Below, one piece after another: positions 7,190 to 40,687 of a stretch of 64,000 bases of DNA. The notes under the pieces were generated by a model. It was not told the DNA's origin and ran no database searches. It worked only from the letters and a program-made list of their open reading frames with translations. The position numbers and the translations under genes are program-made. Every line of letters begins with the position of its first letter. Position 1 is the first letter of the stretch. Origin of the DNA: Octopus sinensis (taxonomy: Eukaryota); assembly GCF_006345805.1 (NCBI RefSeq), contig NC_043011.1:4898001-4962000 (forward strand), read 5' to 3'.

Positions 7190-7581
7190 ACTCAAATCGT
7201 CCTGTCGAAAGACCCTTGTCCTACGTCCTGGTTTTGTTTTGTTGTTTATTTTTTTTTTTTACCGTTATTGTTTTTACGTTTTTGTATTCTTATTGGTGTC
7301 ACGTATTCTGTATTTTTGTTTGTGTACTTCGATCGTTTTCCGTCCTTTCGTTGTATACATTCGAAGCTTTCTTCCAGGGGATCTAATGCGCTTGGCTTAG
7401 ATTTCCCTTGGCGGGCTGGCCATATCGGAGCAATCTCAAGATTAATCAGCCGAAATTGCTAAGTGATCTGGTTCTTGACTGATGACTGAGGGCTCGTTAA
7501 TGTCCCGTCCTGTGGTTCTTGTGTCGTCTCTGTGGTGTTTCATGTTCTTGTCCATGTCTGTATTTAATTTTACTGTTTACC

Positions 7582-14074: not shown

Positions 14075-14087
14075 CAAAGAGTGAGTC

Positions 14088-14205
14088 GCTTACAGCACTT
14101 AGGTTTCCCAAGCGATCACCCATCTAAGTACTCACGAGGCTCGATGTTGCAAAACTTCGTTGATCGGATGAGAACCGATGCTTTCAACGTGATATGGCCG
14201 TAAGC
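14088..14205 (-). pseudogene. 5S rRNA: Dispersed full-length 5S rRNA copy, probably a pseudogene
   Basis: Minus strand reads GCTTACGGCCATATCACGTTGAAAGCATCGGTTCTCATCCGATC...AGTACTTAGATGGGTGATCGCTTGGGAAACC...GTGCTGTAAGC (118 nt), with paired termini. It has several substitutions, no T4+ terminator, and is not in an array. Confidence 0.9.
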
Positions 14206-40029: not shown

Positions 40030-40420
40030 TATATATAAGTCAAAGTTAGGACAAAAAAAAACACAACAAATGGAAACCAATAAAACAGAAGAAGCGGGAA
40101 AATAGACGATAGTAGGACAAACGGTAAACAGGACCAAAACAAGATACTCGGATCATTCGCAGGCGATTTGCTCATCAGTCGGAGTCCGGAAAGTCCGTGT
40201 AGTTTCGCCCCCCTTGTCTTTGAGACTGCTCGAATCCGGCGGGCACCAGGGACTTAAGCTAAAAGCATTATGCATCTGGAAAAGGCAAACGAATGTATAC
40301 AAAAACGGAAACAGGAACAGAAACGAAAACGAAAACGAAAACGCTAGATTTATACATGTACAGCTGCTGTTTTTAGGTGGGAAGATAGGATGTAAGGTAA
40401 ACGAGGTTTTGCTTGCTACT
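40030..40420 (-). mobile_element. Diverged relative of the 7190-7583 element
   Basis: Same motif order on the minus strand, ending at a TA-rich tract; boundaries approximate. Confidence 0.5.
40170..40230 (-). ncRNA. Second, partly decayed rearranged hammerhead ribozyme
   Basis: Minus strand GCAGT-C-TCAAAGAC..GC-GAA-ACTAC..GACTCCGA-CTGATGA-GC. Strand order and spacing match 7429-7489. Confidence 0.55.
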
Positions 40421-40477
40421 TCTATCAAGTCGAATCTCCACATAGTGACTCATTCACTGATTTTGTTTGTATGTGAT

Positions 40478-40687
40478 TCAGTCACTGGACTGTGGCCATG
40501 CTGGGGCTCTGCTCTTAAGAGTTTAGTCGAACAAATTGACCCACGTATGCATATGTCTTTCTTTTTTTTTTAAGTCTGGTACTTATTCTATCTATCACCT
40601 TTTGCCAAACAACCATGTTATGGCTACGTAAACAAACCAATACTGGTTGTGAAGCGGTAGGAGGAAACGAACACAAACACCCCCCTC

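What the first reader, a model, noticed from the sequence alone, without database searches (positions are those of the whole stretch)
40170..40230. Independent second rearranged hammerhead with compensatory changes
A highly diverged relative on the minus strand keeps the same A-C-B order and a similar ~12-nt C-to-B linker: GCAGU-C-UCAAAGAC .. GC-GAAA-CUAC .. GACUCCGA-CUGAUGA-GC. Relative to 7429-7489, pair 16.2-15.2 switches from A-U to G-C (AUC becomes GUC). Stem II becomes a canonical G10.1-C11.1 plus C-G, and the intervening sequence is otherwise dissimilar. Core conservation plus covariation across two subfamilies argues for selected structure rather than chance. Stem I has 3 mismatches and stem III has 1, consistent with a decayed copy (inference).
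Basis: partly seen in the sequence, partly recalled or inferred. Interest (0 to 1): 0.85.

Follow-up and report, generated by a model that had tools for sequence, protein, structure and literature searches.

The report
Rewired hammerhead ribozyme of Naiad retroelements
This stretch is a worn copy of a repeat whose five related families keep all the catalytic letters of the hammerhead ribozyme in a scrambled order, with one stem predicted to come from a distant strand, so Naiad jumping genes, reported to lack canonical hammerheads, likely carry a rewired self-cutting one (cutting is untested).

Summary
The motif is real: hammerhead blocks in the order cleavage site, GAAA, CUGAUGA (type SGC of Eckert 2023). 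It is a decayed copy of a non-coding tandem repeat of Penelope-like type (family B). Five related families in this genome restore stems I and III (25 of 25 consensus pairs each). The strand after CUGAnGA pairs far upstream instead, so two helices are inserted between A9 and G10.1, a layout outside Eckert's six. One family is the 3' end of a decayed Naiad retroelement. Of 26 published Naiad 3' regions read by eye, 6 show this split form and 6 an unsplit type-CSG hammerhead. Naiads are described as lacking canonical hammerheads, and Eckert found SGC/CSG forms only in metatranscriptomes and metagenomes. Cleavage is untested, and array 5' ends do not mark the cut site. The scan noted related things on other DNA: permuted hammerheads in Penelope-like elements, and a phage hammerhead opened in its core.

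The parts
40035..40361 (-). 5'-truncated copy of non-coding tandem repeat family B, ending in (TA)n
   Evidence: 79-88% identical to the other scored copies
40279..40295 (-). 5' strand of the enclosing helix (Pout); its inner part pairs with the strand after CUGAUGA in the consensus and is partly decayed here
40247..40278 (-). hairpin H1, between Pout and the stem II strand
40241..40246 (-). upstream strand X, predicted 10.x strand of stem II (first G pairs C11.1)
   Evidence: 5 of 6 pairs in this copy and in the family consensus
40235..40239 (-). 5' strand of helix P0, equivalent to the stem I-II interaction helix of type-SGC ribozymes
   Evidence: compare PMC10085705
40218..40229 (-). block S: stem III strand, GUC triplet (C17 at 40224), stem I strand
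   Evidence: sequence
40199..40212 (-). block G: 11.x strand, GAAA, stem III strand
   Evidence: sequence
40186..40190 (-). 3' strand of helix P0
40172..40184 (-). block C: stem I strand and CUGAUGA
   Evidence: sequence
40154..40171 (-). 3' strand of the enclosing helix (Pout)
7358..7502 (+). the same domain in a copy of the young sister family A (stems I, III and upstream II intact; predicted cut after 7435)

Best explanation
The stretch is a decayed copy of a non-coding Penelope-like tandem repeat whose 3' region holds the hammerhead catalytic letters in cleavage-site/GAAA/CUGAnGA order, is predicted to fold with stem II supplied by an upstream strand, and in intact copies likely cuts itself after the UH triplet. 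Shown: block order, stems I and III, upstream stem II, helix P0, hairpin H1 and enclosing helix Pout in five family consensuses; RT linkage of family E. Inferred: the fold is a type-CSG hammerhead (as in nematode and spider Naiads) whose chain has been opened between A9 and G10.1 by two inserted helices; P0 holds stems I and II together; families A-D are helper-dependent elements that took the domain from Naiad-type ancestors; cleavage would cut monomers out of tandem or read-through transcripts. This copy, with mismatches in stems I and III, is probably inactive.
For: Consensus pairs in five families: stem III 25 of 25, stem I 25 of 25, upstream stem II 24 of 25; swapping strands between families leaves 56, 57 and 45 of 100. 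The best partner of the 11.x strand by duplex energy is the upstream strand in 5 of 5 families (-8.6 to -11.0 versus +0.2 to -6.1 kcal/mol), and its first pair is G-C11.1 in 5 of 5. Within families, one upstream pair switches G-C to A-U in C (15 G-C, 7 A-U, 4 G-U, 3 A.C, 1 C.C of 30; Fisher p 0.017, likely one event) and one switches C-G to U-A in B (21 and 5 of 30). Pout (4-15 bp) and H1 abut with 0-2 nt gaps in 5 of 5. P0 joins the segment 3' of the 10.x strand to the segment 5' of the stem I strand, as Eckert's essential fourth helix does. Family E lies within 1.5 kb of the RT C-terminal fragment in 15 of 30 loci and matches the 3' ends of two octopus Naiad consensuses. [quoted passage not shown]
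Against: No cleavage data. 5' ends of arrays are scattered over the unit in the young families A and D, none within 25 nt downstream of the cut site; in B 4 of 8 upstream partial copies start or end 2-16 nt after it, a weak hint only. No RT ORF was found 5' of families A-D, the Naiad copies found are all broken, and A and D are 97-98% identical, so their helper is unknown. B shares only the ribozyme domain with E (57%, z 6.4); D is not alignable to B, C or E (z below 1) and only weakly to A (z 2.0). In D a direct 4-bp stem II with a 1-nt bulge is also possible. Registers were chosen after seeing the sequences. Naiad consensuses of other animals were read by eye only. In a Poseidon element hammerhead cleavage was dispensable for insertion in vitro (PMC11167929).
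Confidence: 0.72

Rival explanations
1. The domain keeps a hammerhead-like fold but does not cut; it serves as a structured signal for the element's reverse transcriptase.
For: No mark of cleavage in array 5' ends; the large conserved periphery (Pout, H1) exceeds what catalysis needs; cleavage was not required for insertion in a Poseidon element.
Against: All catalytic positions (CUGAnGA, GAAA, U16.1, H17 = C or A, never G in a consensus) are kept in five diverged families while stems change freely; unsplit SGC and CSG forms cleave in vitro.
Confidence: 0.14
2. The ribozyme assembles across neighbouring tandem units or in a circular RNA: block C of one unit pairs with X, S and G of the next, giving a type-CSG hammerhead with the rest of the unit looped out on Pout. 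Same 3D fold, different use.
For: Families A, B and D form head-to-tail arrays of fixed unit length; animal Penelope hammerheads are proposed to work as dimers (PMC4209133).
Against: All strands lie within about 150 nt of one unit, and solo 5'-truncated copies keep the whole domain; Naiad family E and the published Naiads carry it once per 3' end.
Confidence: 0.07
3. It is an ordinary type-SGC hammerhead with a short direct stem II, and the upstream complement is incidental.
For: This copy has 2 direct pairs; D allows 4 and E 2 with a 1-nt bulge; a bulge after A9 is common in Penelope hammerheads.
Against: Direct pairing gives 10-13 of 25 consensus pairs, at most 1 contiguous pair in A, B and C; the strand after CUGAnGA has its own 4-15 bp partner.
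Confidence: 0.06
4. Chance resemblance in a repeat-rich genome.
For: Short motifs; registers fitted after the fact.
Against: Two hits in the window against 0.02 in shuffles; 96 pattern matches against 0 for the reversed pattern; covariation across five families.
Confidence: 0.01

Closest known systems
Type-SGC and type-CSG non-circularly permuted hammerhead ribozymes (Eckert, Friedrich, Weinberg and Weinberg 2023, PMC10085705)
   Same: Same cyclic block order; stems I and III; all conserved core letters; short link from the stem I strand to the 11.x strand; a fourth helix tying stems I and II.
   Different: There CUGAnGA runs straight into stem II (the paper assumes at most 1-2 inserted nucleotides); here stem II's 10.x strand lies upstream and two helices sit between A9 and G10.1. 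There SGC was found in metatranscriptomes and CSG in two metagenomic sequences, none in genomes of known organisms; here the motif is in an animal genome, where four family searches gave 319 to 2154 first-look candidates each.
Minimal type I hammerheads in the pseudo-LTRs of canonical Penelope-like elements and non-LTR retrozymes (Cervera and De la Pena 2014, PMC4209133; Li et al. 2026 preprint)
   Same: Same place (3' repeat of a Penelope-like element), tandem non-coding derivatives, (TA)n targets, G10.1-C11.1 kept, tolerance of insertion after A9.
   Different: Those are circular-order type I motifs with little or no stem III, proposed to act as dimers; this one has full 5-bp stems and a pseudoknotted order. 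A Neptune-like family in the same genome carries the minimal kind.
Naiad Penelope-like elements (Craig et al. 2021, PMC8557442)
   Same: Family E matches the 3' ends of Naiad_Ovul and Naiad_Obim; RT motifs are of the same type; (TA)n preference, 5' truncation, tandem and inverted copies.
   Different: The paper reports no canonical hammerhead and labels some families 'HHR_core' or 'HHR_half_core' without a fold. Family B itself is non-coding and is linked to Naiad only through the ribozyme domain.

Membership tests
Hammerhead ribozyme | CUGAnGA, GAAA and UH core letters with A15.1-U16.1 | tested here: met
   All five consensuses; core intact in 30/30 A, 13/30 B, 22/30 C, 29/30 D, 26/27 E copies (samples chosen by similarity or, for E, by a pattern holding the core)
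Hammerhead ribozyme | Stems I and III flanking the core, with covariation | tested here: met
   25 of 25 pairs each; swap control 57 and 56 of 100
Hammerhead ribozyme | Stem II closed by G10.1-C11.1 | tested here: met
   Met only through the upstream strand: 24 of 25 pairs, G-C first in 5 of 5
Hammerhead ribozyme | Site-specific self-cleavage after H17 | not testable with these tools
   Only assembled contigs were offered, no raw RNA reads
Type-SGC hammerhead (Eckert 2023) | 5'-to-3' order S, G, C | tested here: met
Type-SGC hammerhead (Eckert 2023) | Stem II strand directly follows CUGAnGA (0-2 nt insertion) | tested here: not met
   10, 13 and 13 of 25 pairs for bulges of 0, 1 and 2 nt; D alone allows 4 bp
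Type-SGC hammerhead (Eckert 2023) | Helix joining the far sides of stems I and II | tested here: met
   P0, 5 bp in B-E and 4+3 bp in A
Penelope-like element insertion | 5' truncation, partial tandem and inverted copies, fixed 3' end, microsatellite target | tested here: met
Naiad clade (family B of the finding) | ORF with N-terminal GIY-YIG and C-terminal RT | tested here: not met
   Family B units are non-coding
Naiad clade (sister family E) | RT at the C-terminal end of the ORF, upstream of the 3' repeat | tested here: met
   RT fragments (Pfam RVT_1 E about 0.001, below cut-off) upstream of the motif in 15 of 30 loci; 3' end matches published octopus Naiads
Naiad clade (sister family E) | N-terminal GIY-YIG endonuclease | not tested
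   No full-length copy was fetched; longest open frame among the close hits was 320 aa
Non-LTR retrozyme | Tandem non-coding unit with a type I hammerhead | tested here: not met
   Tandem and non-coding, but the hammerhead is not type I
Non-LTR retrozyme | Circular RNA form | not testable with these tools
   No raw RNA reads

The most novel reading that the evidence does not exclude
Naiad retroelements across animal phyla carry active non-circularly permuted hammerheads: plain type CSG in nematodes and a spider, and in corals, a box jellyfish and octopus a further form whose chain is opened inside the catalytic core between A9 and G10.1 by two inserted helices. In this genome that form has spread in thousands of non-coding, retrozyme-like tandem copies.
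Probability: 0.62. Interest if true: 0.88.

Novelty: new variant of a known kind. Interest (0 to 1): 0.8.

Why it matters
It would overturn the working picture that the very successful Naiad clade spreads without hammerheads, and explain the unexplained 'half-core' labels in the paper that named the clade. It would move non-circularly permuted ribozymes from environmental RNA contigs into animal genomes, with many natural variants. It would also add a wiring that the six-permutation scheme excludes by assumption. All of this is testable with 150-nt transcripts, and a descriptor for this layout could be run on any repeat library.

Tried and rejected
Rfam: no hammerhead among the 150 listed of 403 whole-window matches, no match at all at 40050-40350. 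Parent ORF 5' of families A-D: none; the PLE protein hits in 4 of 141 family loci are neighbouring insertions where I looked (L049; L133/L150) and were not inspected further for L013, L081 and L179. Neptune-like families with intact ORFs: one carries a minimal type I hammerhead, one showed no hammerhead in the 3' regions read. An intact Naiad helper: not found. Cleavage mark in array 5' ends: absent in A and D. Expression: no RNA holder listed; contigs of four runs show more depth from the ribozyme core onward, but loose ends there show other subfamilies joining, so I draw nothing from it. MAFFT across families did not register family D, so pairs were counted in registers anchored on the core. 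A first count used a register for B's upstream strand that was off by one (23 of 25); corrected (24 of 25). Single-strand MFE folds do not show the pseudoknotted core, as expected. Splicing to join block C to strand X: only D has an acceptor-like site at that point and no such joint appeared for family A; not pursued. 12 of 26 Naiad 3' regions viewed showed no such motif in the text displayed.

Full report
Observation. The minus strand at 40229-40172 carries the three hammerhead blocks in the order cleavage site (S), GAAA (G), CUGAUGA (C). A descriptor for this layout finds this site and the one at 7479 and nothing else in the window; 100 shuffles give a mean of 0.02 hits (descriptor fitted after the fact). 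Rfam finds nothing here.

Host element. The window lies in a 2.7-Gb animal genome. The stretch belongs to an old repeat family, B (319 first-look candidates, 40 scored, 79-88% identical). B is a non-coding, pyrimidine-rich unit of about 1.15-1.25 kb in head-to-tail and inverted arrangements, with a fixed 3' end in (TA)n and variable 5' ends, the pattern described for Penelope-like elements. The site at 7429 belongs to a young family, A (1598 candidates, 98% identical, about 775-bp tandem unit). Following neighbours gave family C (2154 candidates), family D (1706 candidates, 97-98%, about 845-bp unit; 1000 exact matches to a D-type pattern against 0 for the reversed pattern) and family E (most of 96 pattern matches, 0 control). 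B's domain aligns with A, C and E (57-59%, z 6-8); D does not align with B, C or E.

Structure. In the five consensuses stems III and I pair in 25 of 25 positions each, and swapping strands between families leaves 56 and 57 of 100. Direct stem II fails: 10, 13 and 13 of 25 pairs with bulges of 0, 1 and 2 nt, and at most one contiguous pair in A, B and C. The strand before GAAA instead pairs with a strand X 20-28 nt upstream of the cut site: 24 of 25 pairs, 45 of 100 on swapping, better duplex energy in 5 of 5, and G-C11.1 as first pair in 5 of 5. Per-family shuffle probabilities for so good a partner in a 12-offset window are 0.053, 0.047, 0.025, 0.002 and 0.0003; the families are related, so their product overstates the case. 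The strand after CUGAnGA pairs with a far-upstream strand (Pout, 4-15 bp), and a hairpin H1 lies between Pout and X, with junction gaps of 0-2 nt in all five. A further helix, P0, joins the segment 3' of X to the segment 5' of the stem I strand.

What this layout is. Eckert et al. 2023 (PMC10085705; I read parts 1-6 of 8 of the text, and term-searched its supplement) define blocks S, G and C, show cleavage for types SGC and CSG, and show that a fourth helix tying stems I and II is required. They assume no more than 1-2 nt between CUGAnGA and its stems and state that no such RNA was found in genomes of known organisms apart from one doubtful bacterial GCS case. P0 sits exactly where their fourth helix sits if X is the 10.x strand. 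The layout here is therefore best read (inference) as the SGC/CSG cyclic order with the chain opened between A9 and G10.1 and two helices inserted there. A single inserted nucleotide at that step is common in Penelope hammerheads (PMC4209133, parts 1-2 of 4), which makes the step a plausible place for a larger insertion.

Link to Naiad. Family E lies within 1.5 kb of decayed RT C-terminal fragments in 15 of 30 loci and matches the 3' ends of Naiad_Ovul and Naiad_Obim in the supplement of Craig et al. 2021 (PMC8557442; passages; supplement table and term passages). That paper says Naiads lack canonical hammerheads and labels 8 families 'HHR_half_core'. I read by eye the displayed 3' regions of 26 of the 54 Naiad consensuses (names taken from record order). 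Six show the split layout with X, H1, Pout and P0 (three Acropora, one Morbakka, two Octopus), two probably do (Euprymna, Beroe), six show an unsplit type-CSG hammerhead with the stem I-II helix (Naiad_Parc, 1_Nbra, 3_Nbra, Hcon, Hpol, Smim), and twelve showed none in the text displayed. Six of the 8 'half-core' families are among the positives (five clear, Euprymna degenerate); one was unresolved and one not viewed. These readings were not computed.

How it likely works. Intact copies would fold the core from four strands, with P0 clamping stems I and II and Pout/H1 closing the opened core, and would cut after H17, releasing monomers from tandem or read-through transcripts as proposed for other Penelope hammerheads. 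This step is inferred. Against it: array 5' ends in A and D are scattered and none lies within 25 nt after the cut site (the samples were chosen to hold a whole domain); in B, 4 of 8 upstream partial copies start or end 2-16 nt after it. No raw RNA reads were available. In a Poseidon element cleavage occurred but was not needed for insertion in vitro (PMC11167929, passages). The helper RT for the young families is unknown: Naiad copies found are broken, while Neptune-like families have intact ORFs.

Novelty. Paper searches returned no report of SGC or CSG hammerheads in animal genomes or in Naiads, nor of a stem II supplied by a separate strand; the library lacks most subscription papers. Passages of PMC3088659, PMC13725137, PMC10162972 and the 2026 retrozyme preprint (part 1 of 5 and passages) did not describe it; PMC13725137 mentions variants with additional helices without detail. 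Earlier notes of this scan, seen after my reading was formed, mention rearranged hammerheads in Penelope-like elements of other genomes, twister-like motifs in clam Naiads, and phage hammerheads entered through an extra helix in the core; I did not check them.

Verdict. Observation confirmed; interpretation partly supported, with stem II corrected. New variant of a known kind, interest 0.8. The fold is well supported by comparison; cleavage is the open step.

Noticed in passing
window 14087-14205 (-): A 5S rRNA match (Rfam RF00001, 76.6 bits) next to microsatellites; gene or pseudogene not examined.
   Followed up: no
window 40474-40680 (-): A copy of an abundant short interspersed repeat with more than a dozen relatives in the window lies just upstream of the family B copy.
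   Followed up: no
L134:174-3874, L136, L337: Neptune-like Penelope families with two overlapping long frames (about 480-500 aa, then about 780 aa RT plus GIY-YIG); for the L134 family no hammerhead was seen in the 3' regions read.
   Followed up: partly
L200:1468-4900: A very abundant pyrimidine-rich Neptune-like family (10109 candidates) with a minimal type I hammerhead in its 3' repeat; a candidate helper for the non-coding families.
   Followed up: partly
G000:C27:8.3-9.3 Mb (L259): A cluster of at least 11 family E variants on one contig with a changed stem I region, perhaps a local amplification.
   Followed up: no
L010, L015, L021 upstream of the domain; window 7203-7215: A GAAA-capped hairpin upstream of the ribozyme domain is shared by families A, B and C and is duplicated in B.
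   Followed up: no
PMC8557442 supplement, Naiad_CGi, Naiad-1_Chem, Naiad-2_Chem 3' ends: An oyster and two hydrozoan Naiads share a different conserved motif at the 3' end, and two ostracod/crab Naiads have other CUGACGA-containing motifs; not resolved.
   Followed up: no
L110: A GIY-YIG hit of SLX1-like type on a short contig whose flanks look unlike the rest of the genome; possible contaminant contig.
   Followed up: no
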